DNA of 64,000 nucleotides from Vicinamibacterales bacterium (GCA_035281225.1 DATEEI010000097.1:16496-80495), one strand, 5' to 3'. Shown: positions 4,633-28,781, numbered from the stretch's first letter. Numbers and translations are program-made. The notes: generated by a model from the letters alone, not told the origin.

Positions 4633-6012
4633 TCAGTTAATTCCGTACTCCTTCAGCTTCCCCAGCAGTGCCTTGAACTGAATCCCGAGAATATCGGCGG
4701 CTCTGCCTCGGTCGCCGCCGCCGTCCCTCATCGCCTGCTCAATTTTTCTCTTTTCCACTTCTGTCAGCGCCCGGCGTGTGACATCGGCCAAGGTGCCGGA
4801 CAAATCGAACGTCGCCCACGGGCTTGGGGGGCCGGCGACGACCTGCGCGTGCTGCGACAGGTTCAAGTGGCGCGAGTGAATCGAATCGGTCTCGGAGAGA
4901 ATGACCGCCCGCTCGATGCAATTCTGCAGCTCGCGCACGTTACCAGGCCACCCATACTGCTGAAGCTCGTCGATGGCCGACTGCGCCAGCGTGACGGGCT
5001 TCTTCATGTCACGGCTGAACCGTTCGACGAAGTGCCGCGCGAGAATGGGAATGTCTTCGGGGCGATCGCGAAGCGGTGGAATCGTGATCGGAAAGACCGA
5101 TAGGCGGAAATACAGATCTTCGCGGAACTGTTTCGCCGCCACGGCCGCCCGCAGACCCTTGTTGGTCGCCGCGACGATGCGCACGTCAACGTGCAGCGAG
5201 GCCGTGCCTCCGACCCGTTCGAAACGGCGCTCTTCGAGCGCCCGCAGAATCTTCGACTGCAATGAGAGCGGCAGATCGCCAATCTCATCCAAAAAGAGCG
5301 TGCCTCGGTGCGCGACCTCGAACTTCCCAAGCTTGCGGCCCACGGCGCCCGTGAACGCGCCTTTTTCATGACCAAAAAGCTCAGTCTCAAGAAGGTTGTC
5401 CGGAATTGCCGCGCAGTTGATCGCGACGAACGGACCGTCGGATCGGGTGCCAAGCGCGTGAAGCGCGCGCGCAAATAGTTCCTTTCCGGTTCCGCTCTCC
5501 CCTTCGAGCAAGACAGTTGCATCCGTCCCGGCTCCCCGCTGCAGCGAGACCACCGCCTGCTTGAGCGCACGTGACTCGCCGATGATGGTCGGAGCCCCTC
5601 GTCGGGAGGCAAGCTCCTCCTTGAGCAGGACGTACTCTGTCATCACGCGCCGCTGCTTGAGCGCACGTTCGACCATGAGCATCAGGTGATCCGGATCGAC
5701 GGGCTTTGCGAGAAAGTCGAGCGCACCTTCCTTCATCGCCGCCACCGCATCCTGAATACTGCCGTAGGCCGTCATCACGATAACGGGCAGCTCCGGATCC
5801 AGCTCCTTCGCCGCGCGCAGCACGCCAAATCCGTCGCCTTCGGGAAGCCGGAGATCGGTCAGCACGAGCGCCGGTCGATCGTCCTGCATCGCCTTGAGGG
5901 CCTCACGCTGGTCCCGGGCTTCCAAGACGGTATGGCCCTGGCCTTCGATGGCCAGCTTGAGCATGGTTCGGAGTGAGTCTTTGTCTTCGACGAGAAGAAT
6001 GGAGGGAGGCAC
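4633..6012 (-). CDS. sigma-54-dependent response regulator (NtrC/PilR2-like)
   Basis: 459 aa. Receiver domain (LVLTDLRLPEGDG), AAA+ Walker A GESGTGKE, the GAFTGA sigma-54 contact motif and a C-terminal HTH. It is the last gene of the minus-strand minor-pilin operon. Confidence 0.9.
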   Translation of the reverse strand: MPPSILLVEDKDSLRTMLKLAIEGQGHTVLEARDQREALKAMQDDRPALVLTDLRLPEGDGFGVLRAAKELDPELPVIVMTAYGSIQDAVAAMKEGALDFLAKPVDPDHLMLMVERALKQRRVMTEYVLLKEELASRRGAPTIIGESRALKQAVVSLQRGAGTDATVLLEGESGTGKELFARALHALGTRSDGPFVAINCAAIPDNLLETELFGHEKGAFTGAVGRKLGKFEVAHRGTLFLDEIGDLPLSLQSKILRALEERRFERVGGTASLHVDVRIVAATNKGLRAAVAAKQFREDLYFRLSVFPITIPPLRDRPEDIPILARHFVERFSRDMKKPVTLAQSAIDELQQYGWPGNVRELQNCIERAVILSETDSIHSRHLNLSQHAQVVAGPPSPWATFDLSGTLADVTRRALTEVEKRKIEQAMRDGGGDRGRAADILGIQFKALLGKLKEYGIN

Positions 6013-6029: not shown

Positions 6030-6617
6030 TCAGCGTAACCAGCCGGAGGGAACGCCTTCGCGGCGCGCCTCGTCTTCGATGGCTGTGATTGCTTTCGTTT
6101 GAGCCTCGATATCGGCCTTCAGACGATCCTGTTCGGCAATCGCCGCGAGTCGTTTCTTCTCGACCACCGCTCGCTTGGCCGGATCGCTCACGTTCACGAA
6201 CTCGGTGTAGAGCCCGTTGATTTGGCTTTGCATCGCGTCGAGGAACGCTTTGCTCCGCTGAAGCGTCGTGCGTGCCGCAGAGAGACGGTCTCGCCAGTAT
6301 TTCTCGTCTTTCGTGGCAGCGGCCGCTTCGCCCTTCTTGGCGTCCGCCGCTTTCGCATCACCCGCCTTCACGTCTCCGGACGGGGCTTGCGCAGCCGGCT
6401 TGGCGGCCGTCGGTGCCGGAGTGACGGGTGGCGCAGGCGGTTCAACCCCCGGCTTCAGATCACCGTTGGTGTACACCTTCGCCGGAGGGGCTTTCGTCGC
6501 CTTCCGGCGCGCCTCTTCGGCCCGCGCAACATCAGCAAGCGATTGCGCCTCTAACTCCAGTGGAATCAGGATGATCGCGGCAATTAGCGTAGCGAGGAAA
6601 AGAGAGAGTCTTGGCAT
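6030..6617 (-). CDS. secreted coiled-coil protein, minor-pilin-operon associated (paralog 1)
   Basis: The internal ATG at 6615-6617 gives 195 aa, MPRLSLFLATLIAAIILIPLELEA|QSLADVARAEEARRK..KVYTNGDL. After a signal peptide come a P/A-rich linker and a helical C-terminus. The upstream part of track ORF 6030..6827 overlaps the pilX-like gene. Confidence 0.7.
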   Translation of the reverse strand: MPRLSLFLATLIAAIILIPLELEAQSLADVARAEEARRKATKAPPAKVYTNGDLKPGVEPPAPPVTPAPTAAKPAAQAPSGDVKAGDAKAADAKKGEAAAATKDEKYWRDRLSAARTTLQRSKAFLDAMQSQINGLYTEFVNVSDPAKRAVVEKKRLAAIAEQDRLKADIEAQTKAITAIEDEARREGVPSGWLR

Positions 6618-6675
6618 GCTTGTACTGTGATTTTTCCTGTCTGTCTTATCGGCCGAAACCTTGAAATCCATCGTA

Positions 6676-7218
6676 CTACCAGACCTCGATCCACGAAAGC
6701 GTCCCTTGCTGCCGCGAAACCACTGCCTCCACAGCCCTTCGCGTTCCACGAGGCCCGAATGCTTCTGCCCGTAGTGCCAGCACATCAGGCTGTCCGCGCG
6801 GATCGTCTGCAACCCACACGACAACATAAGACGTTGAGTGCCGCTCGCTGACCGCCTGAAGCCGACTAAGGGGGCTAAAGGCGAACAGGCGCCAGCCGCG
6901 GCTATCCAAGCTGGCGGTGATCACCGTGAGGCTCAACACCGAGCCGTCGCTGAGCTGACGGTCGCCTTGCGGTGGCCCATCGACGAAGGTTGACAATGTC
7001 AGCCCTGCCGATATGGAGCCCCAATCTGCCAACGTCGCAAGCTCCTGGCTGACGATCTCCAGGCCTGCCTCTGCCGCGTAGAATCCCTCCTGCGCGAGAC
7101 CGTAGTTTCCTGCGATCTGCATTTCCGTGTTGGTGATGATGACCAATGAAGCGCCGAGCGCTCCGAGCAGGACGAGCGCCATCATCGCAAGCACCAGCGA
7201 GCCGCGCTCGTTCCTCAT
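6676..7218 (-). CDS. PilX_N-domain minor pilin-like protein (GspK-like, short form)
   Basis: 180 aa. N-terminus ERGSLVLAMMALVLLGALGASLVIITNTEMQIAGN resembles a PilX N-terminal domain. The C-terminal LSWIEVW matches the LSWRE(I/V)R end of the two long paralogs. Confidence 0.7.
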   Translation of the reverse strand: MRNERGSLVLAMMALVLLGALGASLVIITNTEMQIAGNYGLAQEGFYAAEAGLEIVSQELATLADWGSISAGLTLSTFVDGPPQGDRQLSDGSVLSLTVITASLDSRGWRLFAFSPLSRLQAVSERHSTSYVVVWVADDPRGQPDVLALRAEAFGPRGTRRAVEAVVSRQQGTLSWIEVW

Positions 7219-8129
7219 GGTCTCAGGCCTAAATTGCGAGGCGTCACGTCGAACGTGATTTCCTGATCGACCAGCGGCGCGCGCAGAAGCGGTTGTTGTT
7301 GCCGCACCTGCAACGTGATGCGGATACGCCTGATGAGCAGGAGGTCTGCGTCATAGCGGGTGGTAAAGGCAGGATCGGGCAACCAGGGGCCGTCGGTGAG
7401 TTGCGCTCGATCGAATCGCCCTGCGCCGCCGTAGTACTCAAAACGAAGCGCCGCTACATCGTCTACCACCGGCAGATCCGTGCGGTCGCCATCGTATTTC
7501 ATCAATTGGCCGTGCCCGGTGGATGGATCCGTCTGCACCCAGTATGTCGCTGCCACGACTGGCGCGACGGTCGTGCCCGGCGCATACGATTTCGACAGCG
7601 TCCTGCCCTCGTGCACCAGCGCAAGTGACGCGGGCTGCACCTCCAGGATGCGAAACGTATCGTACGCACCGCTTTCATCGCATATCACTGCAAGCTCGTT
7701 TGCGGCGAAACTGCAGAGCGGACTTCCCGCCGGGCAACCGGGCTGTGCGTTGACGAGCACAATGTTCCCCTCCTCTGTCGCGACCCGCAAGGTCGTCCCG
7801 GCTCCAGATGTCGGGACATAGAGAACGGAGATGCGGTCGTCGAAGAATGTCCCGGGAGGATCGGGAGAACGCGCGCCCGTGCGAAAGGGCAGGACGGGAG
7901 GAAACGTTCCGCCTGGTCGCGACCCGGCGGTGACGATGTCCTTGAAGATCGCGTCGGAGGCCACCCGAATACGTTGCTGCACATCGGACAAGTCGGGATG
8001 CGCGAACATGCCGTACGCCGGATTTATCAGCTCGAAGATGGCTGCCGATAGCACGAGCATGATCGCCATCGCTACGATCATTTCGACGAAGGAGAAACCC
8101 GACGTCACCGCGCGACGGTCAGCGCACAT
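7215..8129 (-). CDS. PilW-like minor pilin (prepilin-type N-terminal cleavage/methylation domain)
   Basis: The internal ATG at 8127-8129 gives MCADRRAVTSG|FSFVEMIVAMAIMLVLSAAIF, a class III signal peptide with Glu+5. 304 aa; 4-bp overlap with the downstream gene. Confidence 0.75.
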   Translation of the reverse strand: MCADRRAVTSGFSFVEMIVAMAIMLVLSAAIFELINPAYGMFAHPDLSDVQQRIRVASDAIFKDIVTAGSRPGGTFPPVLPFRTGARSPDPPGTFFDDRISVLYVPTSGAGTTLRVATEEGNIVLVNAQPGCPAGSPLCSFAANELAVICDESGAYDTFRILEVQPASLALVHEGRTLSKSYAPGTTVAPVVAATYWVQTDPSTGHGQLMKYDGDRTDLPVVDDVAALRFEYYGGAGRFDRAQLTDGPWLPDPAFTTRYDADLLLIRRIRITLQVRQQQPLLRAPLVDQEITFDVTPRNLGLRP

Positions 8130-8529
8130 TCCGGCCCCGTATGGTAACGAGGTGTACTTCGCCGATGTGTCGGTGTGCGTGTTGGGCCGAGACCTGAATG
8201 AGCACGGCGTTCGGCACGAGCGCCACCGATCGAACTGACCAGCGCCTGACGTACAGCGCCCCTGCGCAAGCGAGAGGCCCTTCACAAACCACCTCGCCGC
8301 TGCTGTTCAGGTGCTCGACGGCGGCTTCGACATCCACCAGCGCGGGCTCGGCCCGCAACTGCTCCACCTTCTGCGTTGCAGCAATCATGGCGAGCGTCCG
8401 GTACTTCGCCTCTGCGTTCACCTTGATGCTGACCGCCGCGAGCTGCGCGAGAACGACGAGGGCGCCCGTGAGCAAGCCGATGGCGATCGTGATTTCGACG
8501 AGGGTGAATCCGGTGCCCGAATCGCGCAT
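8119..8529 (-). CDS. PilV/GspI-like minor pilin
   Basis: The ATG at 8527-8529 gives MRDSGTG|FTLVEITIAIGLLTGALVVLAQL, a prepilin motif. 136 aa; first gene of the minus-strand minor-pilin operon. Confidence 0.75.
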   Translation of the reverse strand: MRDSGTGFTLVEITIAIGLLTGALVVLAQLAAVSIKVNAEAKYRTLAMIAATQKVEQLRAEPALVDVEAAVEHLNSSGEVVCEGPLACAGALYVRRWSVRSVALVPNAVLIQVSAQHAHRHIGEVHLVTIRGRNVR

Positions 8530-8778
8530 GCGGGAGGGACTGCAACAGCGACTCCAGCCGCCATGCCCCGGGCAAGCGCGGGAGGTGGCAATAACTGCCA
8601 TGCGCAGCCGCAGTGAGCAGTGCAGTTCTGCTCACCCCCTGCCGGCGATCTCCCGGCCTTTGGGACCGTAGGCTGACGAATCCGCAAGTACGCCTGCAGA
8701 ATCGTCAGTTCGTGTTCCAGAACTGCACAGGGGGCCCCACGATCGGCCTCTTTTGCTAGGAAAAATGGTTGGCTAGAC

Positions 8779-8793
8779 GGCACGGTGGTTGCC
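8779..8793 (+). promoter_or_regulatory. candidate sigma-54 (-24/-12) promoter for the plus-strand minor-pilin operon
   Basis: cGGCACGgtggTTGCc has GG (8779-80) and GC (8791-92) separated by exactly 10 nt, very like the pilA promoter TGGCACGggcgTTGC. Caveat: it overlaps the TTG start in the ORF track and sits only ~15 nt before the alternative GTG at 8807. Confidence 0.4.
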
Positions 8794-9325
8794 TCTACAC
8801 TCACCGGTGTCGAAGCAACAGCATCGCGGTTTCTCGGTGATCGAGCTCCTGGTTACTGTGGCGATCGTCGCCCTCATGTCGGCGATGGCGGTCCCCGTGA
8901 TGAGCGGGGCGCGCCGTCGTGCGGCGGTGGCCGCGGCCCAACGCGAGGTGGCTGGACAGATCCGCGCGGCACGGTTTGCGGCGATCACCAGCAACAAGAT
9001 CATGCGGGTACGCTTCGCCTGCCCGGCCGCAGGTCAGTATCGTGTGATTGAGCTTACCGGTGTGTCATCGATCGACACAGACTCGAACCGATGCTCGTAT
9101 CCATGGCAACCGGACTCGGATCCGGCGACGGTACCGAATTTCGATGGACCGATCATGAACCTCCCGGAGGGCGTTTCATTCGCCGCGACGCAGAATTTGG
9201 AAATCAGTACGAGAGGAATCGTCACAGTGACAACCGGCTCACTGCCGGGAACGATCCAGGTAACCGATGGCTCTAGCACATTTACTATCACGGCATCTGC
9301 TTCCGGCCGCATTCAGACGCCGTAA
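8789..9325 (+). CDS. GspH/FimT-like minor pilin
   Basis: Prepilin motif ..KQQHRG|FSVIELLVTVAIVALMSAMAVP. The track start is TTG at 8789. GTG at 8807 would give a typical short leader, MSKQQHRG. Confidence 0.75.
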   Translation: MPLHSPVSKQQHRGFSVIELLVTVAIVALMSAMAVPVMSGARRRAAVAAAQREVAGQIRAARFAAITSNKIMRVRFACPAAGQYRVIELTGVSSIDTDSNRCSYPWQPDSDPATVPNFDGPIMNLPEGVSFAATQNLEISTRGIVTVTTGSLPGTIQVTDGSSTFTITASASGRIQTP

Positions 9326-9752
9326 GCGAGGGACGGCCCGCGACGAGCGCGGCTTTACCTTTGTGGAGGCGGTGATTGCGATCGGCATTCTGGCCGGCGG
9401 CATGGTCGCCGTGGCGCAGCTGCTCGTCTACTCGCTCCAGATGCACCACCTGGGACGTCGCACCTCCGAAGCCTCCGCCCTGGCAGCGGCAAAGCTCGAA
9501 GAGCTTCAGAAACAGAACTTTGACACCTCCACGGCGGTCGCGATCACGCCGGTGAGCCCGGACCCGCTCGGCCAGAACGTCGCGAACCACTTCGATACGA
9601 CCACCGCGGGATATACGAGGCGCTGGAAGGTCCTAGCGCACTCCTCCGGCAATGCCAATCTCAGGGAGGTCACTCTACGCGTGATTCCTCCGAACACCGA
9701 CCTGAACAGGTTTCGCACGGTTGAAGTCACGACAATTTTGAGGAGATGGTAA
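9267..9752 (+). CDS. PilV/GspI-like minor pilin
   Basis: Prepilin motif RDERG|FTFVEAVIAIGILAGGMVAVAQL. ATG 9267 is the only canonical in-frame start. It gives an unusually long 29-aa leader and a 59-nt overlap with the upstream gene. Confidence 0.7.
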   Translation: MALAHLLSRHLLPAAFRRRKRGTARDERGFTFVEAVIAIGILAGGMVAVAQLLVYSLQMHHLGRRTSEASALAAAKLEELQKQNFDTSTAVAITPVSPDPLGQNVANHFDTTTAGYTRRWKVLAHSSGNANLREVTLRVIPPNTDLNRFRTVEVTTILRRW

Positions 9753-10414
9753 GTAGCGTGATCCCCTCACCAGACAGGAATCAGGCGGGCTTTACCCTGA
9801 TCGAACTGCTGATGGCGATGGCCGTCAGCACCGCGATCATGGGGAGCCTCGTGCTCGTCAGTGCCCAGATGACCCGGTCGTACTACTCGCAGCTCGACGG
9901 CGCGGCCGTTCAGCAGGAGGGGCGCTATGCGCTCGACTTGATCGTCCGCACTCTGCAATCGGCCGGCAACAACCCCGAAACAATTGTGACCAGCCCTTGC
10001 CCGACAGCCGGCACCACGTTTCGCGCGATTCAACGCAACCCAAACGGCGCCGCCACACAGAACAACATACGCATCCACTCGGACCTGAACGGCAACGGCG
10101 TTCTCGGCGGCGCGACGACCGGCACCTGCCCCGATACGTATGAAGACATCACTTTCGCACTGAACACAACGACCCAAACGATCACCATGGACGACAACAT
10201 GATTGCCGGCGGCGCAGCTCTGGACATGACCGACACCGTGATCACCGGGCTGACCTTCGCCTATCTCGATTGCGCTCGGGCGGCGACCACCGACGACGAC
10301 GACGTTTGTTACGTTCAGGTGACCGTGACGTCGCAAACACCCACGGTCAACAACAACACGGGCGTGAAAACCACATACACAAACAACGCGGAAGTACGGA
10401 TGCGAACGAGATGA
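9746..10414 (+). CDS. PilW/GspJ-like minor pilin
   Basis: 222 aa with prepilin motif DRNQAG|FTLIELLMAMAVSTAIMGSLVLV. Overlaps both neighbouring genes. Confidence 0.75.
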   Translation: MVSSVIPSPDRNQAGFTLIELLMAMAVSTAIMGSLVLVSAQMTRSYYSQLDGAAVQQEGRYALDLIVRTLQSAGNNPETIVTSPCPTAGTTFRAIQRNPNGAATQNNIRIHSDLNGNGVLGGATTGTCPDTYEDITFALNTTTQTITMDDNMIAGGAALDMTDTVITGLTFAYLDCARAATTDDDDVCYVQVTVTSQTPTVNNNTGVKTTYTNNAEVRMRTR

Positions 10415-11799
10415 CACCACATCAATCATTTGCGGGCAGACGTTCAGAGCAAGGTGCGGCGCTGGTGATGGCGATCATTTGTCTGTTTCTCATCACCGGC
10501 CTGGCGACAGCCATGCTCACGAGCGCACGAACCGAGCGGTTGATCGCCACCAACGAGGAACGGGCCGTGCTCGCGCGAATGGCGGCCGAGGCGGGCCTGA
10601 ATCACGGTATTCAAGTCGTCGCCGAGCACCTCTCCTCGTTTCAGTATGCGAACATCCCCGCGGCTGCCAGTGATCTCTTCGACGGCCCGGATGATATCGC
10701 CGGCAACACAGACGATGGCATCCTGTCGGAGTATGGCCTCAATGCTGTGAGCACGACGACGACGCTGAGTGCGTCAGACCGCACCACGTACGACGTGCGG
10801 GCCTACGACGACGATAACGCTACCGCGCGCAGCATCACCCAAAGCACGGACGATCTCGGGCGTATCGGAGAGCAGGATCCGGCGAACGTCACGACCGATC
10901 TCAACAGGCGTGTCACGGTGCAGTCCACTGGATATGGGCCGGCGGGAACGACCACGCGTCTCGAAGTGACTCTAGGCGCCGTGCTGTTGCCTGCAATCGT
11001 TACAGGAGGCAACCTTACGATAACCGGCAATGTGGACGTCGGAGGCACGCTCGGCGGCGTGCACTCGAACGGCGATTTCGTCATAAACGGCAATGCTTTC
11101 AGTGCGGAACAGAACTGCACGGCCAGCGGGACATCGAATGACAACTTTGGCAACTGCAGCGCAACGGGGATCAACGATGATGGCCGTCCGAGTGTGACGC
11201 TACCGAATGTTCAGGCGTCGGACTACCTGGACGAGGCGAGATACCGCCTGAATGCCGACGGCACCGTCCTCAGTAGAGCCACTCCCGGGGCAGCGCTGGT
11301 AGCCTGCACAGGCGCGTGTCTTACCCCGCTCGGTTGGACGTTCAGCGGTGGCACATGGACACCGGGGGGAAGTCCCGACTATGGCGGCTACTATGTCGAG
11401 GGCGACATTACCGTCTCCTCTAACATATCGAATATCTCCATATTCTCCACGGGGTCGTTAACCAGCAACAACAATATGTCCCCGATTGATCCCAACAATG
11501 GCAACGCAGCGATCGCCCAGTGGGCGACAACAGCGTTCCTCGTCCTGAACGGAGATTTTCTGTCTGGCCCCTCCAACCTGGGATTAGCAGCAAATGACGC
11601 TATCGGAATCATTCTGGTTCGGGAGCAGATACGCATGCACGGCAACCACAACGTTTACGGCCAGTTAATCGCCCAGAATGCTTCAAACCTCTCGAGCACA
11701 GTGACAAGCAACGATTTCAACGGAAACATCAACATCCAGTACAGCGCAACGGCGGGCCTCTCCTCCTTCAACGTCCTGTCCTGGAGAGAAATCCGATGA
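10411..11799 (+). CDS. large PilX_N-domain protein (GspK-like; candidate pilus tip protein), copy 1
   Basis: The ATG at 10411 overlaps the upstream stop (ATGA). 462 aa: MTPHQSFAGRRSEQGAALVMAIICLFLITGLATAMLTSARTERLIATNEE, then a G/N/T-rich repetitive region (GGNLTITGNVDVGG..). C-terminal LSWREIR. Confidence 0.75.
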   Translation: MTPHQSFAGRRSEQGAALVMAIICLFLITGLATAMLTSARTERLIATNEERAVLARMAAEAGLNHGIQVVAEHLSSFQYANIPAAASDLFDGPDDIAGNTDDGILSEYGLNAVSTTTTLSASDRTTYDVRAYDDDNATARSITQSTDDLGRIGEQDPANVTTDLNRRVTVQSTGYGPAGTTTRLEVTLGAVLLPAIVTGGNLTITGNVDVGGTLGGVHSNGDFVINGNAFSAEQNCTASGTSNDNFGNCSATGINDDGRPSVTLPNVQASDYLDEARYRLNADGTVLSRATPGAALVACTGACLTPLGWTFSGGTWTPGGSPDYGGYYVEGDITVSSNISNISIFSTGSLTSNNNMSPIDPNNGNAAIAQWATTAFLVLNGDFLSGPSNLGLAANDAIGIILVREQIRMHGNHNVYGQLIAQNASNLSSTVTSNDFNGNINIQYSATAGLSSFNVLSWREIR

Positions 11800-12329
11800 T
11801 GCGACACAGAATGCTCGTCGCGATCGTTCTGTTCGGCGCCGTTCATGCGGCGCATGGGCAGTCTCTCGCCGACGTCGCTGATAAGGAAGCCGCGCGACGA
11901 AAGACCATCAGCACCTCGGGTCGTGTGTACACGAACCAGGACCTGCCGGAGACGGCGAAACCCGCGTCCGCGCCAGCGTCCACGACCGCATCGGAAGCCG
12001 CGACCGCTACGCCCGAAGCCGAAGCATCCGTGAAGGAAACAGGCACAGTCGAACCGGTACGCCCGGCTGGAAACGACAAACACTGGCGTCAGCGTGCCAG
12101 CGACTACCGACGTCGCTTGAATGAAGCGCGGGGCCACGTCGCAGCCGTTGAAGGCCGGCTGGAGACCTTGCGCGCCGAGAAACAGACACCGGCTACCGCG
12201 GCTGAAATCGCGCTCTCGGAAAAAGATCTCCGCAAATTTCAACGCAATCTCGCATCAGCCGAGAAGAATTGGGCGCGTCTCGAGTCTGATGCGCGCGCCG
12301 CGGGCACAGCGGCCTTGCTACAGGAGTAG
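11796..12329 (+). CDS. secreted coiled-coil protein (paralog 2)
   Basis: 177 aa, start overlapping the upstream stop (ATGA). Signal peptide ..VHAAHG|QSLADVADKEAARRK..RVYTNQDL, then a T/A/P-rich linker and a helical C-terminus. Confidence 0.75.
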   Translation: MMRHRMLVAIVLFGAVHAAHGQSLADVADKEAARRKTISTSGRVYTNQDLPETAKPASAPASTTASEAATATPEAEASVKETGTVEPVRPAGNDKHWRQRASDYRRRLNEARGHVAAVEGRLETLRAEKQTPATAAEIALSEKDLRKFQRNLASAEKNWARLESDARAAGTAALLQE

Positions 12330-12491
12330 CCGGCCGCCTCCGACATCCACACCGAAGCCGCCCGTAACCGCTCACCTCGTTGCCGCTCACCGAGCGTCTC
12401 CGCACACAACACGAATCTCATCTTGCAAAATCGCTAGCAAATTCGCATGGCTCGATCGGCCGTGGTCTTGCACTATTTGGACGCGAACGAG

Positions 12492-13892
12492 ATGACGACT
12501 CATGGATCGTGCGCGGACGCACGTTCGGAACAAGGCGCAGCCCTGGTGATGGCAATCATCAGCCTCTTCCTCATCACCGGCCTCGCGACAGCCATGCTCA
12601 CGAGCGCGCGCACCGAGTCGTTGATCGCCACCAACGAGGAACGGGCTGTGCTCGCGCGGATGGCCGCCGAGGCAGGACTGAATCACGGCGTTCAGGTCGT
12701 CGCCGAGCGGCTCGCCCTCTGGCAAACCGTTCCGTTTGCGACGACTCAGCTCGCCGTAACCGACCTCCTGAACGGTCCGGACAACGACAGCGCGACCACA
12801 GCCGACAACGGCATCCTGTCGGAGTACGGCCTCAATGCTGCGAATGCGACCACGACGCTGAATGCCACGGAGGGAACTCGGTATGAGGTGCGTGCCTATG
12901 ACGATGACGACGCGGCGGCGCGCGGAATCACGCTAAGCAGCGTCGACCTCACTCGTATCGGAGAACAAAATCCGGCGACCAGCACAACCCCCTATACCGA
13001 CCTCAACAGCCGCATCGTTGTGCAGTCAATCGGCTATGGACCGGCGGGCACCAGCACGCGCTTCGAAGCCATGCTTGGCACGGTGCAGATGCCTGCGGTG
13101 GTCAGCAACGGCGACCTGAATTTCAACGGCAACGTGACCCTGGCAGGAGCGCAGGGCGGCGCCCACTCGAACAGCGATCTGGACATCGACGGCAACTCTT
13201 TCAGCGCGACGCAAAACTGCACGGCCAGCGGAGCGGCAACCGGGAACCTGACAAATTGCGCCGGAGGCACCAACGGCTCGTCATTTCCGACCCTCACCGT
13301 CCCAAACGTCCTGCCGACCGACTACCTCGACGAGGCGAGATACCGCCTGAATGCCGGCGGCACCGTCGAGATGAGGTCGGCCCCCGCCGGCGCGTTTGCG
13401 GCCTGCACGGGTACGTGTCTGACCGGTCTCAATTGGACCTTTGGGGGCGGCACCTGGACTCTGAACGGGACCCCGCCCACGGGCGGCTACTTTGTCGAGG
13501 GCAACGTGGATATTGCCGGTAGCGCCACGGGAGTGTCGATATTCGCGACGGGGTCGCTGACGATGAGCGGGAACCGAAATTTAGCGCCTCCTGCCCTTCT
13601 TAGCTCCGGCAACATTTGGGCAACCACGGCGTTTCTCGTTCTGAATGGAGACCTCAGCGTCAGTGGAACCCCCAACCTGGGAACCAGCGCGCTGCCGGGG
13701 CTCATCCTTATTCGCGAGCAGATATCGATGTCCGGAAACGTGACCGTTTTCGGGCAGTTGCTGATGCAGGATGCGTCAAACATCTCCAATACGGTCGGGA
13801 CCAACGACATCTCGGGTTCCGTCAACATCACCTATACCGGAGCAGGCGGTCTCTCCGCCTTTACCATCCTTTCCTGGAGGGAAGTCCGATGA
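12492..13892 (+). CDS. large PilX_N-domain protein, copy 2 (tandem paralog of 10411..11799)
   Basis: Start placed at ATG 12492 by alignment with copy 1 (MTTHGSCADARSEQGAALVMAIISLFLITGLATAMLTSARTESLIATNEE). The DNA is also clearly homologous from about 9 nt upstream of the start. C-terminal LSWREVR. Confidence 0.75.
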   Translation: MTTHGSCADARSEQGAALVMAIISLFLITGLATAMLTSARTESLIATNEERAVLARMAAEAGLNHGVQVVAERLALWQTVPFATTQLAVTDLLNGPDNDSATTADNGILSEYGLNAANATTTLNATEGTRYEVRAYDDDDAAARGITLSSVDLTRIGEQNPATSTTPYTDLNSRIVVQSIGYGPAGTSTRFEAMLGTVQMPAVVSNGDLNFNGNVTLAGAQGGAHSNSDLDIDGNSFSATQNCTASGAATGNLTNCAGGTNGSSFPTLTVPNVLPTDYLDEARYRLNAGGTVEMRSAPAGAFAACTGTCLTGLNWTFGGGTWTLNGTPPTGGYFVEGNVDIAGSATGVSIFATGSLTMSGNRNLAPPALLSSGNIWATTAFLVLNGDLSVSGTPNLGTSALPGLILIREQISMSGNVTVFGQLLMQDASNISNTVGTNDISGSVNITYTGAGGLSAFTILSWREVR

Positions 13893-14428
13893 CGCGACAG
13901 ATGCTGCTCGGCGTCGTGGTTGTGTTTGTCTCGGCTGACACAGCGCGGAGTCAGTCGCTCGCCGAGGTGGCTATGGAGGAAGAAGCCCGGCGAAAGACCG
14001 TCAATACGCAGAGCCGCGTGTACACCAACAAGGATCTGGCGGAGACCGTCAGCCCCAACCCGACGCCATCACCGGCAGCGGTAACCGCGCCGGACGCAAC
14101 AACTGGCAAACTCCAATCTGACTCGGCGACGAAGCTAGCCAGCACCGCCGGATCGATCGACCGGGATATCGAAGAGAAGCAGTGGCGCAACCTGGCGCGG
14201 GATTACCGGATCCGTCTCAGCGAACGGCGGGACCACGTCGCAGCGGTAGAAAGCCGGCTGCAGACTCTGCGAGCCGATACGCAGACACCTGCAGTCGCGA
14301 GCGAGATTCGGCTCGCAGAAAAAGATCTGAGAAAATTTCGATTTAATCTGGAATTGGTGGAAAAGGATTGGGCGCGGATCGAGGAAGAGGCGCGCAAGGC
14401 AGGCGCATCCGCCTTGCTGCGCGAATAG
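13889..14428 (+). CDS. secreted coiled-coil protein (paralog 3)
   Basis: The ATG at 13889 overlaps the upstream stop (ATGA). 179 aa: MTRQMLLGVVVVFVSADTARS|QSLAEVAMEEEARRK..RVYTNKDL. Collinear with paralog 2. Confidence 0.75.
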   Translation: MTRQMLLGVVVVFVSADTARSQSLAEVAMEEEARRKTVNTQSRVYTNKDLAETVSPNPTPSPAAVTAPDATTGKLQSDSATKLASTAGSIDRDIEEKQWRNLARDYRIRLSERRDHVAAVESRLQTLRADTQTPAVASEIRLAEKDLRKFRFNLELVEKDWARIEEEARKAGASALLRE

Positions 14429-14434
14429 CGCCCG

Positions 14435-15691
14435 TCAAACGACAGGAGCCATCGGCAAGACCACTTGAAAACTGGCGCCTCCAGACGCGGACGTCATCAC
14501 TTGGATCCGTCCGTTGTGCGTGACGATGATCTTTTGCACGAGGGCGAGCCCCAATCCCGTCCCACGCCCCTTCGTCGTCACGAACGGCCGGAAAATCCGC
14601 TCCCGATCTTCAGGCGCCACGCCCGGTCCGTTATCGTCGACGGTCACGCGCACGTTCCCCGCCTCGACTTTCCCATCGATCACAACCTCCGGAGCAATGG
14701 ACGCGTCGACGCACGCCTCCACCGCGTTCCTCAGGAGGTTGCTGAACGCTTGCCGCAGCAACACATCATCTCCCTGAATCACTGGAAACTCGCCGCGGAT
14801 CGTCACGTCGCCGCCATGCGCTCGCGCGTCGTTGCGTAGCTCCTCGGCAGTGCGCTCCGCGATCGCGCGAAGATCGACGGGTGACAACGTCAGCTGTGCA
14901 GGGCGCGCGAAGTTCAGAAAATTCGTCACGACCTCCCCGAGTGCTTCCGTCTCCTGTCGAATACCCAGCACATGGGGATGAAAGGAGGCCGGCACGACGT
15001 TCAGGTCGATCAAACGGGAATAGCCGTGAATGGTTGCCAGACCGTTCCGAAACTCATGGGCAATGCCGGCGGTGAGCTCGCCAACCTGTGCAAGGCTTTC
15101 CTTCAGGCGCAGCTGCTCTTCCATCTCCACGACGGGCGTGAGGTCCGTGAAGAGACAGATCACGCCGTGAGGCTCCCCCTGCTCGTCCGATAAAGGCGAC
15201 ACGCTGACGCCGAGATATCCAGGGGAGCTTCCTGCCGGCCCGACGCACAACTGCCGCCGGATAATCGGCTTGCCCGCATTGAGGCATTCTTCGATGACCA
15301 GCGCGAGCGGCGGGGGCAGAAGCTCTCGATACGTCCGCTCGAGGGTAGCCTCAGGCAAGTGCAGGAGCTTCCGGCCGGCCGGATTCAGGATGCGGAGCCG
15401 GCTATCACTGCCGACCACGAGCAGTCCGGATGACAGGCTCTCGACGATCTCGCTGCTGAGCCGCTCGGATGCCTCGGCTCGCGCCGACATCTCGCGTTCC
15501 TGCGCCTTGAGCTTCGTGAGCGCCTCGTGAAGGGCCGCGGTTACGAACGCGCTCTCGGTGGTGCTCTCGCTGAGCGAGCGCCTCGAATCTCGCGCGGCGG
15601 CGGCAAATCGCAGCACCGCGAGGATAAGGACGCCGACCAGGGCGGCCACGATGGCGGTGAGGCCGATGATGGCGAGGACGGTTGGATTCAT
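14435..15691 (-). CDS. PAS-domain sensor histidine kinase (NtrB/PilS2-like)
   Basis: 418 aa. N-terminal TM helix, H-box AHEFRNGLATIHGY, and N/G boxes NLLRNAVEA, DDNGPGV, GTGLGLA. Confidence 0.88.
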   Translation of the reverse strand: MNPTVLAIIGLTAIVAALVGVLILAVLRFAAAARDSRRSLSESTTESAFVTAALHEALTKLKAQEREMSARAEASERLSSEIVESLSSGLLVVGSDSRLRILNPAGRKLLHLPEATLERTYRELLPPPLALVIEECLNAGKPIIRRQLCVGPAGSSPGYLGVSVSPLSDEQGEPHGVICLFTDLTPVVEMEEQLRLKESLAQVGELTAGIAHEFRNGLATIHGYSRLIDLNVVPASFHPHVLGIRQETEALGEVVTNFLNFARPAQLTLSPVDLRAIAERTAEELRNDARAHGGDVTIRGEFPVIQGDDVLLRQAFSNLLRNAVEACVDASIAPEVVIDGKVEAGNVRVTVDDNGPGVAPEDRERIFRPFVTTKGRGTGLGLALVQKIIVTHNGRIQVMTSASGGASFQVVLPMAPVV

Positions 15692-15726
15692 CGTCGATCG
15701 TCGATCGTCGATTGTCGATCGTCAGT
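15692..15726. repeat. heptad array cgtcgat x3, tgtcgat, cgtcagt, filling the whole pilD-kinase spacer
   Basis: Read directly. 7-bp period from the base after the kinase start codon (15689-15691) into the pilD stop codon (15722-15724). Confidence 0.85.
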
Positions 15727-16483
15727 AGTAAAAAGAGGCATACCAGTCCACGATGCGGTCGCCCGCAGCCGCGGCGACGAGCGCGGCGACGGCGAGGAAG
15801 GTGCCGAAGGGCAGCGCGTATTTCATGTCGCCTCGTTTGAGTGCGATCATGCCGACGCCGACAATCGAACCGATGAACGACGAGAGAATCAACGTCAACA
15901 ACGTGAGCTTCCACCCGAGGAAAGCGCCGATCATCGCCAGCATCTTCACGTCGCCGAACCCCATCCCCTCCTCACCTCGAATCCGGAAGTAGGCCTCCCC
16001 CATCAACCACAGTGAGCCTCCTCCGACCACGATGCCAATCGCGGAGCTCAACCAACCAGGCGGAAGAAAGAAGCTGAGCAGAAAACCGAGCACGATTCCC
16101 GGCAACGTGATGCGGTCGGGCAGAATGCGATGCTCGAGGTCGATGACGAACAGCACGATCATCGCGCACGCGAACACGATTCGCGCGTATAGCAATGGCG
16201 GTGCGAACAGCAGGACAGCGGCGAAAAACACGATAGCGGTCACCAGCTCGATTGCGGGGTACTGCAAGGAGATGGGCGCGCCGCAGGCACGGCAGCGGCC
16301 ACCGAGCATCAGATAGCTGAGAACGGGGATGTTGTCGCGCGCGCTCACGATCGCGCGGCAATGCGGGCAACGCGAGGAAGGCCACACAACCGACTCGCGC
16401 AGAGGCAGGCGATGGATGCACACATTGAGAAAGCTGCCGACCACCAGCCCGAATACGGACGCGATGAGCGCGGACGCAATCAT
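15722..16483 (-). CDS. pilD: prepilin peptidase / N-methyltransferase (A24 family)
   Basis: 253 aa. N-terminal CPHC..CRAC zinc motif, a polytopic membrane body and GFGDVKMLAMIGAFLG around the catalytic Asp. Confidence 0.92.
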   Translation of the reverse strand: MIASALIASVFGLVVGSFLNVCIHRLPLRESVVWPSSRCPHCRAIVSARDNIPVLSYLMLGGRCRACGAPISLQYPAIELVTAIVFFAAVLLFAPPLLYARIVFACAMIVLFVIDLEHRILPDRITLPGIVLGFLLSFFLPPGWLSSAIGIVVGGGSLWLMGEAYFRIRGEEGMGFGDVKMLAMIGAFLGWKLTLLTLILSSFIGSIVGVGMIALKRGDMKYALPFGTFLAVAALVAAAAGDRIVDWYASFYY

Positions 16484-27293: not shown

Positions 27294-28708
27294 TTCAGAT
27301 TGTATTTCTTAGCGTAGTACCGGAACGACCGGTAGGGAATGCCCAGGAGCTCCGCGGCCTTCACCTGAACGCCGCCCGCCCGGGCGAGCGCCTGCGTAAT
27401 GTATTCCTTCTCGAGGCCTTCGACGTGCCTTTCGAGGTTGAAGCCGGACTCGGGCAGCAGGCCGGCGGCGGCTGGCCCTTTCGGCACCCGTTTGACGATG
27501 TGCTCGGGCAGGCTCTCAGGAAGAATCGCCTGGCTCTTCTCCAGGGCGACCGATCGTTCGATCACGTTTTCCAGCTCGCGGATGTTGCCCGGCCACTCGT
27601 AGGCCTCGAGCAGATCGATGGCGGTCTGGGACAGCGCGTGAATGTTCTTGCCCATCTGATCCCGATACTTCACCAGGAAGTAATCGGCCAGCAGCAGGAT
27701 GTCTTCGACCCGTTCCCGGAGCGGCGGAAGGTGAATCGGAATGACGTTGATTCGATAGAACAGGTCTTCGCGAAACTTTCCTTCGGCGACCATTCTGGCG
27801 AGATCCTGGTTCGTGGCTGCAATGACACGCATGGCCACGTCGAGCTCTTCGACCCCGCCCAGCCTGCGGAACTTGCGTTCCTGAAGCACGCGAAGGAGCT
27901 TCACCTGCATCAGCGGGTTCATTTCCCCAATCTCGTCGAGAAAGAGCGTACCGCCCTCAGCGGATTCGATCAGGCCTTTCTTATTCACAGTGGCGCCGGT
28001 GAAGGCGCCTTTCATGTGCCCGAACAGCTCCGACTCGAGCAGCGTCTCCGGAATGGCGCCGCAGTTGACAGCGACGAACGGACGATCGCGCTTCAGCGAA
28101 TAGAAGTGAATGGCGCGCGCCACCCATTCCTTCCCGGTGCCCGACTCACCGGTAATGAGGACCGTGCTGTCGGTCCGCGCGATCTGCTCGATCAGCTTGA
28201 ACACGTCGAGCATCTTCTCGCTGCGGCCAACGATGTTGGCAAACTGGTGCGTCGTCCCAAGCGCGCGCTTGAGGAGCACGTTCTCCTGCCGCAGCTGGCG
28301 CTGCTCGAGCGCGTTGCGAACCTTGATCTTCAGTTCGTCGACGTCGAAAGGTTTGCTCAGGTAATCGTGAGCGCCGAGGCGCATGGCCTCTATAGCCGTG
28401 TCGGCCGCCGCGAAGGCTGTAATCATGACGACGAGAATGTCCTGATCGATCCGCTTTGCAGCGCGAAGGACATCGACGCCGCTCATGTCGGGCATCTTGA
28501 CGTCAGAAATCAACAGATCGAACCGCGACCGTTCGAGCTGCTCGATGCCCAATTGACCGCTCTCCGCAACCGTCACGTCGTAGCCTTCGCGGCGCAGGAC
28601 GATCGACAATAGCTCGCGCATCGATCGCTCATCGTCCACGACGAGTAGCCGAGCCTGTGCAACCTGCGTCTTCACCGCCGTGCCGTTTTCCACTTCGGGC
28701 TGATTCAC
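27290..28708 (-). CDS. pilR: sigma-54-dependent response regulator PilR
   Basis: 472 aa, GTG start. Receiver ([13 protein letters not shown]), [14 protein letters not shown], and a C-terminal HTH ([20 protein letters not shown]). Directly downstream of pilS. Confidence 0.9.
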
Positions 28709-28722
28709 GTTTGCGTCACCAC

Positions 28723-28781
28723 GGTCCGGCTAAAGCCGGACACTACGAACATGGGTCCGGCTAAAGCCGGACACTACGAAC
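28723..28781. repeat. tandem 31-bp-period duplication of the pilS 3' end (28-bp unit ggtccggctaaagccggacactacgaac x2), each copy holding a hairpin
   Basis: Identical units at 28723-28750 and 28754-28781. On the minus strand each reads GTTCGTAGTGTCCGGCTTTAGCCGGACC (VRSVRL-stop) with stem GTCCGGC/GCCGGAC and loop TTTA. The pilS stop codon TAG spans the loop's last two nucleotides (TA) and the first G of the 3' stem arm. Confidence 0.9.

What the first reader, a model, noticed from the sequence alone, without database searches (positions are those of the whole stretch)
6030..14428. Three paralogous small secreted coiled-coil proteins, each directly following a PilX_N (GspK-like) gene
The three proteins are 6030-6617 (minus), 11796-12329 and 13889-14428 (plus). 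They share:
- a Sec-type signal peptide;
- a conserved mature N-terminus QSLA(D/E)VA..(E)EARRK, then 6-8 residues, then (K/R)VYTN.DL;
- a low-complexity P/A/T-rich linker;
- a (D/E)K.WR motif;
- a ~90-aa heptad-rich helical C-terminus.

Two of the three starts overlap the stop of the preceding PilX_N gene (ATGA), which implies stoichiometric co-expression.

No PilY1-like gene is present in either minor-pilin operon. I do not recognise this family. Its fixed position after the tip-type minor pilin suggests a pilus-tip accessory, chaperone or adhesin partner that has not been described.
Basis: partly seen in the sequence, partly recalled or inferred. Interest (0 to 1): 0.66.

Follow-up and report, generated by a model that had tools for sequence, protein, structure and literature searches.

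The report
Exported hairpin proteins closing minor-pilin operons
Three related small exported proteins, each encoded right after a tip-type minor pilin gene in a soil acidobacterial type IV pilus cluster, belong to a large unnamed family that almost always ends minor-pilin operons, so it is probably an untested pilus accessory factor.

Summary
Genes 6030-6617(-), 11796-12329(+) and 13889-14428(+) encode paralogs sharing five parts: a Sec-type signal peptide, an invariant mature N-terminus (QSLADVA..E..RRK, then KVYTNxDL), a disordered Pro/Ala/Thr linker, a (D/E)KxWR motif and an ~85-residue helical hairpin (AlphaFold2 pLDDT >97). Each follows a PilX_N gene, two with ATGA overlaps.

No Pfam, NCBIfam, PDB or Foldseek match names the family. 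It is large (3937 clusters at 50% identity) and was seen only in Acidobacteriota, mostly Vicinamibacterales.

In 108 related loci, 94% of family genes are the last gene of a type IVa minor-pilin operon. They follow:
- PilX in 56%;
- a zinc-ribbon-TM-TPR protein in 35%;
- PilY1 in 3%.

So the position after PilX is not fixed, and the family co-occurs with PilY1. Starting from the large PilX instead, 5 of 5 loci had the family gene next. The large-PilX/partner pair is tandemly duplicated in the window.

A mirror-tree test found no co-evolution with PilX or PilW. The N-terminal peptide is far more conserved than the hairpin.

Best reading: a lineage-specific exported accessory protein of the pilus priming/tip module. 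Its mechanism is inferred, not shown. A TcpF/CofJ-like tip-docked exoprotein is the main rival.

The parts
6030..6617 (-). CC1, 195 aa. It has a signal peptide, the N-terminal motif, a disordered linker, a helical hairpin and a C-terminal GVPSGWLR. It is the last gene of the minus-strand minor-pilin operon, and the NtrC-type regulator gene starts 17 nt downstream.
11796..12329 (+). CC2, 177 aa, a paralog. Its ATG overlaps the stop of the large PilX gene (ATGA).
13889..14428 (+). CC3, 179 aa, a paralog 51% identical to CC2. Its ATG overlaps the stop of the second large PilX gene (ATGA). An alternative start lies 4 codons downstream.
6676..7218 (-). Small PilX-type (GspK-like) minor pilin, 180 aa, upstream of CC1.
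   Evidence: Pfam PilX_N 26.1 bits; phmmer hits to PilX genes of related loci
7215..8129 (-). PilW/GspJ-like minor pilin. The ORF runs to 8285, and the likely start lies just before the GFSFVE prepilin motif.
   Evidence: N_methyl and TIGR02532 matches; sequence
8119..8529 (-). PilV/GspI-like minor pilin. The ORF runs to 8601, and the likely start is the Met before GFTLVE.
   Evidence: TIGR02523 and TIGR01707 matches below cut-off; sequence
8789..9325 (+). FimT/GspH-like minor pilin, first gene of the plus-strand operon. GTG at 8807 is the more likely start.
   Evidence: Pfam N_methyl and GspH; sequence
9267..9752 (+). PilV-like minor pilin. The start codon is uncertain.
9746..10414 (+). PilW-like minor pilin.
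10411..11799 (+). Large PilX-type minor pilin, 462 aa. It has a PilX_N helix and a beta-rich, solenoid-like C-terminal domain. It is the partner gene of CC2.
12447..13892 (+). Second large PilX-type minor pilin, 60% identical to the first, and the partner gene of CC3. With CC3 it forms a tandem duplicate of the PilX/CC2 gene pair.
4633..6012 (-). Sigma54-dependent NtrC/PilR-type response regulator. It is the conserved downstream neighbour of CC1-type genes.
14435..15691 (-). PAS histidine kinase with one N-terminal TM helix and no periplasmic domain. It is convergent with CC3 and is a conserved neighbour of the large-PilX operon.
15722..16483 (-). Prepilin peptidase (PilD).

Best explanation
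These are members of an unnamed, Acidobacteriota-restricted family of Sec-exported, non-pilin accessory proteins of the type IVa pilus minor-pilin (priming/tip) module.

Shown:
- The protein is made from the last gene of the minor-pilin operon.
- In two of the three window copies it is translationally coupled to the PilX-type pilin gene.
- It has a signal peptide and an almost invariant ~30-residue mature N-terminal peptide.
- A 45-60-residue disordered Pro/Ala/Thr tether follows the peptide.
- An ~85-residue antiparallel helical hairpin follows the tether.

Inferred:
- After signal-peptide cleavage the protein stays in the periplasm.
- It helps the minor-pilin complex (with or without PilY1) to assemble or stay stable before pilus extension. 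This is the kind of role shown for TfcP in Myxococcus and proposed for TfpY in Pseudomonas.
- The invariant N-terminal peptide docks on a component common to all modules, such as a conserved part of the machine.
- The more variable hairpin is a second binding or oligomerisation module.

My confidence that it is a pilus-associated accessory protein is about 0.8. My confidence in the periplasmic assembly/stability mechanism is about 0.3-0.35. The figure given is a compromise.
For: Gene neighbourhood:
- Among 43 family genes in 41 loci, 38 lie in minor-pilin operons: 25 after PilX-type genes, 10 after the TPR protein and 3 after PilY1 (39 loci from species genomes and two look-ups; two more contigs).
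- In 80 metagenome loci picked only by the N-terminal peptide pattern, 64 of 65 readable cases directly follow PilX or the TPR protein; in the 65th (L106) an unidentified stretch separates the TPR gene and the family gene.
- Sampling from the other partner, the large PilX at 31-46% identity, gave a family gene directly after it in 5 of 5 loci. Three of those loci lie outside the main pil cluster.

Coupling and duplication:
- Two copies have ATGA overlaps preceded by GGAG.
- The two-gene unit (large PilX plus partner) is tandemly duplicated, and both copies keep the overlap.

Protein features:
- The signal-peptide features and the invariant Gln at +1 hold across 120 homologs.
- No Cys is present, so there is no lipobox and no heme-binding motif (sequences).
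- The architecture comes from AlphaFold2.
- The N-terminal peptide is 52-79% identical across subfamilies, against 14-30% for the hairpin.
- The hairpin evolves more slowly than PilX and PilW: mean distance 0.72 against 1.06 and 1.27.

Precedents for lineage-specific exported or periplasmic accessory proteins encoded with pilin genes, which act on priming and are not built into the pilus: TfcP (PMC8833165) and TfpY (PMC11841053).
Against: - No experiment or complex prediction links the protein physically to any pilus component.
- A partial Mantel test on 18 loci recovered PilX-PilW co-evolution (r 0.32, p 0.0008). It gave none for the new protein with PilX (r -0.18) or PilW (r -0.25 to -0.32).
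- The hairpin fold is generic. Foldseek gave only non-significant hairpin matches.
- Some operons with two minor-pilin modules carry only one copy (L030, L105, L113).
- Three distant members have no pilus gene within 6 kb (L031, L033, L038).
- The sampling leans toward close relatives, because both scans used patterns taken from the conserved N-terminal peptide.
Confidence: 0.5

Rival explanations
1. It is a tip-docked exoprotein or adhesin that works like TcpF and CofJ of type IVb pili. After Sec export, the conserved mature N-terminal peptide binds the minor-pilin tip complex. Pilus extension then carries the small hairpin through the secretin. Outside the cell it stays at the tip as an adhesin or bridging factor, or it is released.
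For: - The layout matches TcpF and CofJ: a Sec signal peptide, a flexible N-terminal segment of the mature protein that acts as the export or docking signal for the tip minor pilin, and a gene inside the pilus operon (PMC10120004, PMC6048534, PMC9565799).
- Here the mature N-terminus is invariant from residue +1 and is separated from the folded domain by a disordered tether.
- The gene sits next to the tip-type pilin.
- An ~85-residue hairpin is slim enough to pass a secretin.
- The FadA hairpin adhesin is among the structural look-alikes.
- Distant members outside pilus loci keep the N-terminal peptide, as expected for a portable signal.
Against: - There is no homology to TcpF or CofJ, and those belong to type IVb systems with trimeric large minor pilins.
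- The TcpF export signal is specific to its own pilus. Here the peptide is nearly the same in paralogs whose PilX partners differ greatly.
- The peptide was found on no other kind of protein in about 0.9 Mb of related loci.
- The hairpin is more conserved than the minor pilins, which is unusual for an exposed adhesin.
- The mirror-tree test found no co-evolution with PilX or PilW.
Confidence: 0.2
2. It is an envelope tether or secretin-associated factor. The N-terminal peptide and the hairpin bind two different envelope structures, for example secretin or peptidoglycan at one end and the inner-membrane platform at the other. The Pro/Ala-rich linker spans the periplasm. The protein positions or gates the machine, loosely like the SlkA/SlkB plugs of PilQ.
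For: - The protein has two modules joined by a long disordered Pro/Ala/Thr linker.
- The N-terminal peptide is conserved regardless of which minor-pilin module is adjacent.
- The protein evolves at a rate closer to core proteins than to minor pilins.
- Small periplasmic proteins that bind PilQ are known (PMC13392014).
- One distant member lies upstream of a class A penicillin-binding protein gene.
Against: - The Slk genes are not in minor-pilin operons, and no similarity to them was tested or seen.
- No secretin gene lies next to the family genes.
- Having one copy per minor-pilin module, and the co-duplication with the large PilX, fit a module-specific role better than a general machine role.
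Confidence: 0.12
3. It has a regulatory role. The protein reports the state of the minor-pilin complex to the flanking two-component system (PAS histidine kinase and sigma54-type response regulator), giving feedback control of the operon.
For: - CC1-type genes lie immediately upstream of the NtrC-type regulator gene in nearly all loci. The whole operon is often bracketed as kinase, then pilV-W-X, then the new gene, then regulator.
- Feedback of minor pilins and PilY1 on their own operon is reported in Myxococcus and Pseudomonas (PMC8833165).
Against: - The kinase has a single N-terminal TM helix and no periplasmic domain to receive a periplasmic signal.
- CC2, CC3 and the L122, L123 and L125 genes are not next to any regulator gene.
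- The hairpin shows no co-evolution with NtrC beyond phylogeny (r 0.07).
Confidence: 0.08
4. It is a general periplasmic protein with no pilus-specific function, and its gene is merely syntenic with the pilus cluster in this lineage.
For: - The fold is generic.
- Distant members occur beside glycoside hydrolase, peptidase, cupin and PBP genes.
- All loci come from one phylum, so shared ancestry inflates the counts.
Against: - The linkage persists when the operon sits at different genome positions (L122, L123, L125).
- It persists across three different upstream partners.
- It persists after duplication within one genome.
- It persists at 31% identity of the partner pilin.
- Translational coupling is present.
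Confidence: 0.07

Closest known systems
TcpF (Vibrio cholerae TCP) and CofJ (ETEC CFA/III), exoproteins of type IVb pili
   Same: - Sec signal peptide.
- A flexible N-terminal segment of the mature protein that binds the tip minor pilin.
- A folded domain behind that segment.
- A gene inside the pilus operon (PMC10120004, PMC6048534).
   Different: - No sequence or fold similarity.
- Those systems are type IVb and have a single large trimeric minor pilin.
- Here the system is type IVa with a PilV/W/X set.
- Here the N-terminal peptide is partly helical in the model and is shared by paralogs with different partners.
- Export has not been shown.
TfcP of Myxococcus xanthus (non-canonical cytochrome c in the minor-pilin/PilY1 cluster_1)
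   Same: - A small, lineage-restricted protein with a type I signal peptide.
- Encoded in the minor-pilin operon.
- Periplasmic, and stabilises the priming complex without entering the pilus (PMC8833165).
- The surrounding pil cluster has a Myxococcus-like gene order.
   Different: - TfcP has a heme-binding CxxCH domain. The new proteins have no Cys at all and a helical hairpin fold.
- TfcP acts through PilY1 and calcium. The window has no PilY1.
TfpY/TfpX/TfpZ (FimB-like) pilin accessory proteins of Pseudomonadota
   Same: - Encoded directly after a pilin gene.
- Proposed to prime assembly together with the minor pilins.
- Not detected in pili.
- Function otherwise unknown (PMC11841053).
   Different: - TfpY-like proteins have three TM helices and a mixed alpha/beta periplasmic domain, and they follow the major pilin gene.
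- The new family is soluble after cleavage, all-helical, and follows minor-pilin genes.
PilY1, the non-pilin tip protein of type IVa pili
   Same: - A non-pilin protein with a Sec signal.
- Encoded after pilX in minor-pilin operons.
   Different: - PilY1 is about 1000 aa with a beta-propeller.
- The new family gives no PilY1 Pfam match and co-occurs with PilY1 in many loci.
Generic antiparallel helical hairpins: DksA coiled coil, FadA adhesin, AcrA hairpin, Skp arms
   Same: - A two-helix antiparallel coiled coil of 80-90 residues.
- DksA also shows a weak sequence match around the hairpin tip.
   Different: - None of the matches is significant. The best is E 0.17-0.2.
- DksA is cytoplasmic and has a zinc finger.
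- Nothing here points to a shared function.

Membership tests
PilX_N / GspK-like minor pilins (the upstream genes, not the new proteins) | Match to Pfam PF14341 at the N-terminal hydrophobic helix | tested here: met
   - 6676-7218(-) scores 26.1 bits against a cut-off of 25.5.
- The two large genes score 22.5 and 15.9 bits, below the cut-off.
- Relatives of the two large genes carry PF14341 and the name PilX.
PilY1 | PilY1 beta-propeller domain (PF05567), with a size of about 1000 aa | tested here: not met
   - CC1-3 give no PF05567 match.
- They are 177-195 aa and all-helical.
- A genuine PilY1 from L001 scores 45 bits and co-occurs with the family.
PilN/PilO/GspL/GspM alignment-complex proteins | An uncleaved N-terminal TM anchor, then a coiled coil, then a ferredoxin-like periplasmic domain | tested here: not met
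   - No Pfam or NCBIfam match.
- There is an AxA-type cleavage site with an invariant Gln at +1.
- The model shows only a hairpin and no alpha/beta domain.
TcpF/CofJ type IVb exoproteins | Sequence or fold homology to TcpF or CofJ | tested here: not met
   Neither appears in the Pfam scan, the PDB sequence search or the Foldseek search.
TcpF/CofJ type IVb exoproteins | Pilus-dependent export driven by the N-terminal segment binding the tip minor pilin | not testable with these tools
   This needs secretion assays or complex modelling.
TfcP (T4aP formation cytochrome c) | Cytochrome c domain with a CxxCH heme motif | tested here: not met
   CC1, CC2 and CC3 contain no cysteine.
DksA/TraR | Coiled coil followed by a C4 zinc finger, in a cytoplasmic RNA polymerase-binding protein | tested here: not met
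   - TIGR02420 scores 17 bits against a cut-off of 115.5.
- The PDB sequence match has E 0.17.
- There is no Cys, and a signal peptide is present.
Outer-membrane or inner-membrane lipoproteins (pilotins such as PilF/Tgl, or PilP) | Lipobox with Cys at +1 | tested here: not met
   There is no Cys. The mature N-terminus is an invariant Gln.
The new family itself (working definition) | All four elements together:
- a signal peptide;
- QSLA(D/E)VA..E..RRK, then x6-8, then (K/R)VYTNxDL;
- a disordered Pro/Ala/Thr linker;
- (D/E)(K/E)xWR at the start of a helical hairpin. | tested here: met
   All three window proteins meet it.

The most novel reading that the evidence does not exclude
The invariant mature N-terminal peptide is a docking or export signal read by the type IVa minor-pilin tip complex. 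In that case these soil Acidobacteriota would use an ordinary type IVa pilus to carry or secrete small hairpin proteins, one per tip module. This would be a TcpF/CofJ-type mechanism outside enteric type IVb pili, with a portable signal also found on a few proteins encoded elsewhere in the genome.
Probability: 0.18. Interest if true: 0.65.

Novelty: new variant of a known kind. Interest (0 to 1): 0.42.

Why it matters
Type IV pili are started and tipped by a minor-pilin complex. Which extra, non-pilin proteins that complex needs differs between lineages and is poorly mapped outside Proteobacteria and Myxococcus.

This family is abundant in soil metagenomes (thousands of sequence clusters). It is tied to minor-pilin operons about as tightly as PilY1 is elsewhere, and it has no name or model in Pfam or NCBIfam.

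Defining it would improve annotation of Acidobacteriota genomes. It would also give pilus researchers a small, simple candidate for a new accessory, docking or cargo component. If the N-terminal peptide proves to be a docking signal, it would extend the TcpF/CofJ principle to type IVa pili.

Tried and rejected
- Pfam and NCBIfam scans of the three proteins and of four distant members gave nothing above cut-off.
- A profile search of PDB sequences gave only DksA at E 0.17.
- The N-terminal peptide profile against PDB gave nothing meaningful.
- Foldseek of the CC1 model gave only generic hairpins, none with E below 0.001.
- A protein search with the N-terminal peptide alone returned only 41-93-aa fragments. 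These are probably truncated gene calls, so it said nothing about other architectures. The first attempt was too short to run.
- A diverse alignment was too variable for a metagenome scan. The peptide-only alignment worked.
- A literature search for the motif strings and for Acidobacteria minor pilins found nothing relevant.
- Promoter and terminator scans around the operons were at chance level. Sigma54 boxes across the window were also at chance level overall.
- The mirror-tree test for co-evolution with PilX and PilW was negative.
- I considered and rejected PilY1 substitute, PilN/O-like protein, lipoprotein pilotin, cytochrome (TfcP-like) and DksA relative. The reasons are in the membership table.


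Full report
**1. What is in the window**

The region lies inside a complete type IVa pilus gene cluster. The cluster genes are:
- PilB (32841-34598), PilT (31680-32825) and PilC (30443-31675);
- PilS (28761-30434) and PilR (27290-28708);
- a TPR protein;
- two pilin genes (19805-20566 and 19193-19750);
- an ABC ATPase and an ABC-2 permease;
- a 311-aa protein;
- PilD (15722-16483);
- a PAS histidine kinase (14435-15691).

All of these are on the minus strand. From my own knowledge, this order resembles the Myxococcus xanthus pil cluster.

Two divergent minor-pilin operons sit between the kinase and a sigma54-type response regulator (4633-6012):
- The minus-strand operon is PilV-like, PilW-like, small PilX (6676-7218), then CC1 (6030-6617).
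- The plus-strand operon is FimT/GspH-like, PilV-like, PilW-like, large PilX (10411-11799), CC2 (11796-12329), a second large PilX (12447-13892), then CC3 (13889-14428).

G+C content is about 62% throughout.

**2. Checking the observation**

The three small proteins are paralogs:
- CC2 and CC3 are 51% identical (E 6e-59).
- CC1 and CC2 are 30% identical (E 9e-11).
- A profile of the family finds only these three in the window.

All listed features are present:
- a short basic N-terminus, a hydrophobic core and an AxA-type site before an invariant Gln;
- QSLA(D/E)VA..E.ARRK, then 6-8 residues, then (K/R)VYTNxDL;
- a Pro/Ala/Thr-rich stretch;
- (D/E)KxWR;
- a helical C-terminus.

AlphaFold2 on a 120-sequence alignment gives three regions for CC1:
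- a short helix at 27-40 with moderate confidence;
- a disordered region at 54-99 (pLDDT below 50);
- an antiparallel two-helix hairpin (105-142 and 146-186) with pLDDT above 97.

Large hydrophobic residues follow a single a/d stripe on each helix. Many surface polar residues are conserved.

The ATGA overlaps at 11796-11799 and 13889-13892 are real and are preceded by GGAG. CC1 starts 58 nt after its PilX gene and ends 17 nt before the regulator gene. No PilY1 homolog exists in the window.

**3. Is the family known?**

- No Pfam or NCBIfam model reaches its cut-off.
- The PDB sequence search gives only the DksA coiled coil at E 0.17.
- Foldseek gives generic hairpins (DksA, ING4, FadA, CT398, AcrA, Skp), none with E below 0.001.
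- Every source name is 'hypothetical protein'.
- No paper was found.

The family is nevertheless large:
- 3937 clusters at 50% identity with E up to 0.001, of which 1527 have E up to 1e-10.

All 37 hits in one-genome-per-species data are Acidobacteriota, mostly Vicinamibacterales or subdivision 6. One is in Terriglobia. Those scans used narrow patterns, so absence from other phyla is not established.

**4. Neighbourhood census**

I classified ORFs by phmmer against the window's proteins and those of locus L001. The results were:

- *Genome and look-up loci.* There are 43 family genes. 25 follow a PilX-type gene, 10 follow a ~290-aa protein, 3 follow PilY1 directly and 5 are elsewhere.
- *The ~290-aa protein.* It has a cytoplasmic zinc ribbon, one TM helix, a Pro/Ala linker and periplasmic TPRs. 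It usually lies in the order PilX-PilY1-TPR-CC.
- *The 5 elsewhere.* One follows PilD. One is divergent from a minor-pilin operon. Three have no pilus gene nearby.
- *Metagenome contigs.* In 80 contigs selected only by the peptide pattern QSLA[DE]VA[RK][AKQ], 65 had a readable upstream gene: small PilX in 33, large PilX in 3, the TPR protein in 28 and other in 1.
- *Pfam check.* Pfam confirmed PilX_N or TPR on the upstream ORFs that were tested.

Together, 102 of 108 family genes (94%) are the last gene of a minor-pilin module.

The downstream gene is one of three things:
- usually the NtrC-type regulator, followed by dehydroquinate synthase on the other strand;
- the convergent kinase, for the large-PilX type;
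- the next PilV-W-X module.

L001 has two modules, each ending with its own copy. L030, L105 and L113 have two modules but only one copy.

**5. Reciprocal test**

The large PilX has only 21 detectable homologs. Some are named 'Tfp pilus assembly protein PilX' or 'PilX/CcmA (bactofilin)'.
- In all five contexts examined, at 31-46% identity, the next gene overlaps or abuts it and is a family member (profile E 1e-15 to 1e-52).
- Three of these loci (L122, L123, L125) are FimT/GspH-PilV-PilW-PilX-CC cassettes away from the main pil cluster.

So the linkage does not depend on the flanking kinase or regulator genes.

In the window, the large PilX and its partner form a tandemly duplicated two-gene unit. 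The pilins are 60% identical and the partners 51%. Both junctions keep the ATGA overlap.

**6. Which part is conserved, and with what does it co-vary?**

- Across subfamilies the N-terminal peptide stays 52-79% identical, while the hairpin drops to 14-30%.
- The peptide profile hits only family members in all the loci and the window fetched up to that point (L001-L041, about 0.55 Mb). In this sample it is not a signal shared with other protein types.
- A C-terminal G-[VI]-P-x-x-W-[LI]-[RQ] ending is also family-wide, but it is degenerate in CC2 and CC3.

I ran a partial Mantel (mirror-tree) test on 18 loci holding CC, PilX, PilW, NtrC and dehydroquinate synthase:
- The positive control worked: PilX-PilW given NtrC, r 0.32, p 0.0008.
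- CC-PilX gave r -0.18.
- CC-PilW gave r -0.25 for the whole protein and -0.32 for the hairpin alone.
- Mean Kimura distances were NtrC 0.37, dehydroquinate synthase 0.53, hairpin 0.72, PilX 1.06 and PilW 1.27.

This is weak evidence, because the sample is small and from one orthologous group. It argues against a fast-evolving, partner-specific interface in the CC1 group. It fits binding to something conserved.

**7. Mechanism**

*Shown:*
- an exported (Sec-type) small protein with two conserved modules joined by a flexible tether;
- co-transcription, and in two cases translational coupling, with the last minor pilin;
- near-obligate genomic linkage to minor-pilin modules with or without PilY1.

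*Inferred as most likely:*
- The protein is a periplasmic accessory factor of the priming/tip complex. Its role is comparable to TfcP, which stabilises PilY1 and the minor pilins without entering the pilus (PMC8833165), or to TfpY (PMC11841053).
- The invariant N-terminal peptide docks on a shared component.

*Main rival:* the TcpF/CofJ principle. [quoted passage not shown] The architecture here matches that layout well, but the pilus type, the fold and the lack of peptide specificity between paralogs differ.

*Less likely:*
- a secretin or envelope tether, with the Slk plug proteins as precedent (PMC13392014);
- a regulatory role, because the kinase has no periplasmic domain;
- mere synteny.

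**8. Verdict**

The family is new and pilus-linked. However, the position after PilX is not fixed, the family is not a PilY1 replacement, and no direct evidence yet supports a tip-partner role.
- It is best filed as a new, lineage-specific variant of the known class of non-pilin accessory proteins encoded in minor-pilin operons.
- Interest is moderate.

Noticed in passing
window 20440-20455 (-): There is a perfect sigma54 -24/-12 box (TGGCACGGGCGTTGCT). It lies about 80 nt upstream of the likely true start of the pilin gene inside ORF 19805-20566(-), which fits PilR/sigma54 control of the major pilin. Across the whole window such boxes are at chance level.
   Followed up: partly
window 8778-8793 (+): A weaker GGCAC-N5-TTGC box lies 14 nt upstream of the probable GTG start (8807) of the FimT/GspH-like gene. 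That gene heads the plus-strand minor-pilin operon, next to the sigma54-type regulator system.
   Followed up: no
window 10411-11799 and 12447-13892 (+): The large PilX proteins have a long N-terminal pilin helix followed by a beta-rich, solenoid-like domain (AlphaFold2 pLDDT 78). The best Foldseek hits are an ice-binding protein and adhesin solenoids, none significant. JGI names a relative 'PilX/CcmA bactofilin'. They may be the tip adhesin in this PilY1-less cluster.
   Followed up: partly
L001 4669-5538; also L012, L017, L018, L020, L024, L026, L028, L030 and many metagenome loci: A conserved ~290-aa protein lies between PilY1 (or PilX) and the family gene in about a third of related operons. 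It has a cytoplasmic zinc ribbon, one TM helix, a Pro/Ala linker and periplasmic TPRs. It is absent from the window's minor-pilin operons.
   Followed up: partly
L031 5935-6549, L033 5983-6537, L038 5968-6882: Distant family members lie outside pilus loci. Their neighbours are GH16, an M10 peptidase and cupin genes in L031 and L033, and an AAA ATPase and a class A penicillin-binding protein in L038. The L038 protein (Terriglobia) has two tandem hairpin units.
   Followed up: partly
window 4633-6012 to 14435-15691: Both minor-pilin operons sit between a PAS histidine kinase and an NtrC-type regulator. In relatives these form one co-directional unit: kinase, pilV-W-X, CC, regulator. The window's plus-strand operon looks like an insertion into that unit.
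   Followed up: partly
window 20586-22250 (-), 22266-24017 (+), 23956-25488 (-): Three large ORFs lie inside the pil cluster. Two have no Pfam match. One has a weak ALG3/GT-C-like match (E 3e-4), so it may be a membrane glycosyltransferase.
   Followed up: no
L027, L029, L032 and the hits: Many family genes in long-read MAG assemblies are split by apparent frameshifts. This probably explains the many 41-93-aa 'proteins' that carry only the signal peptide and the N-terminal motif.
   Followed up: no
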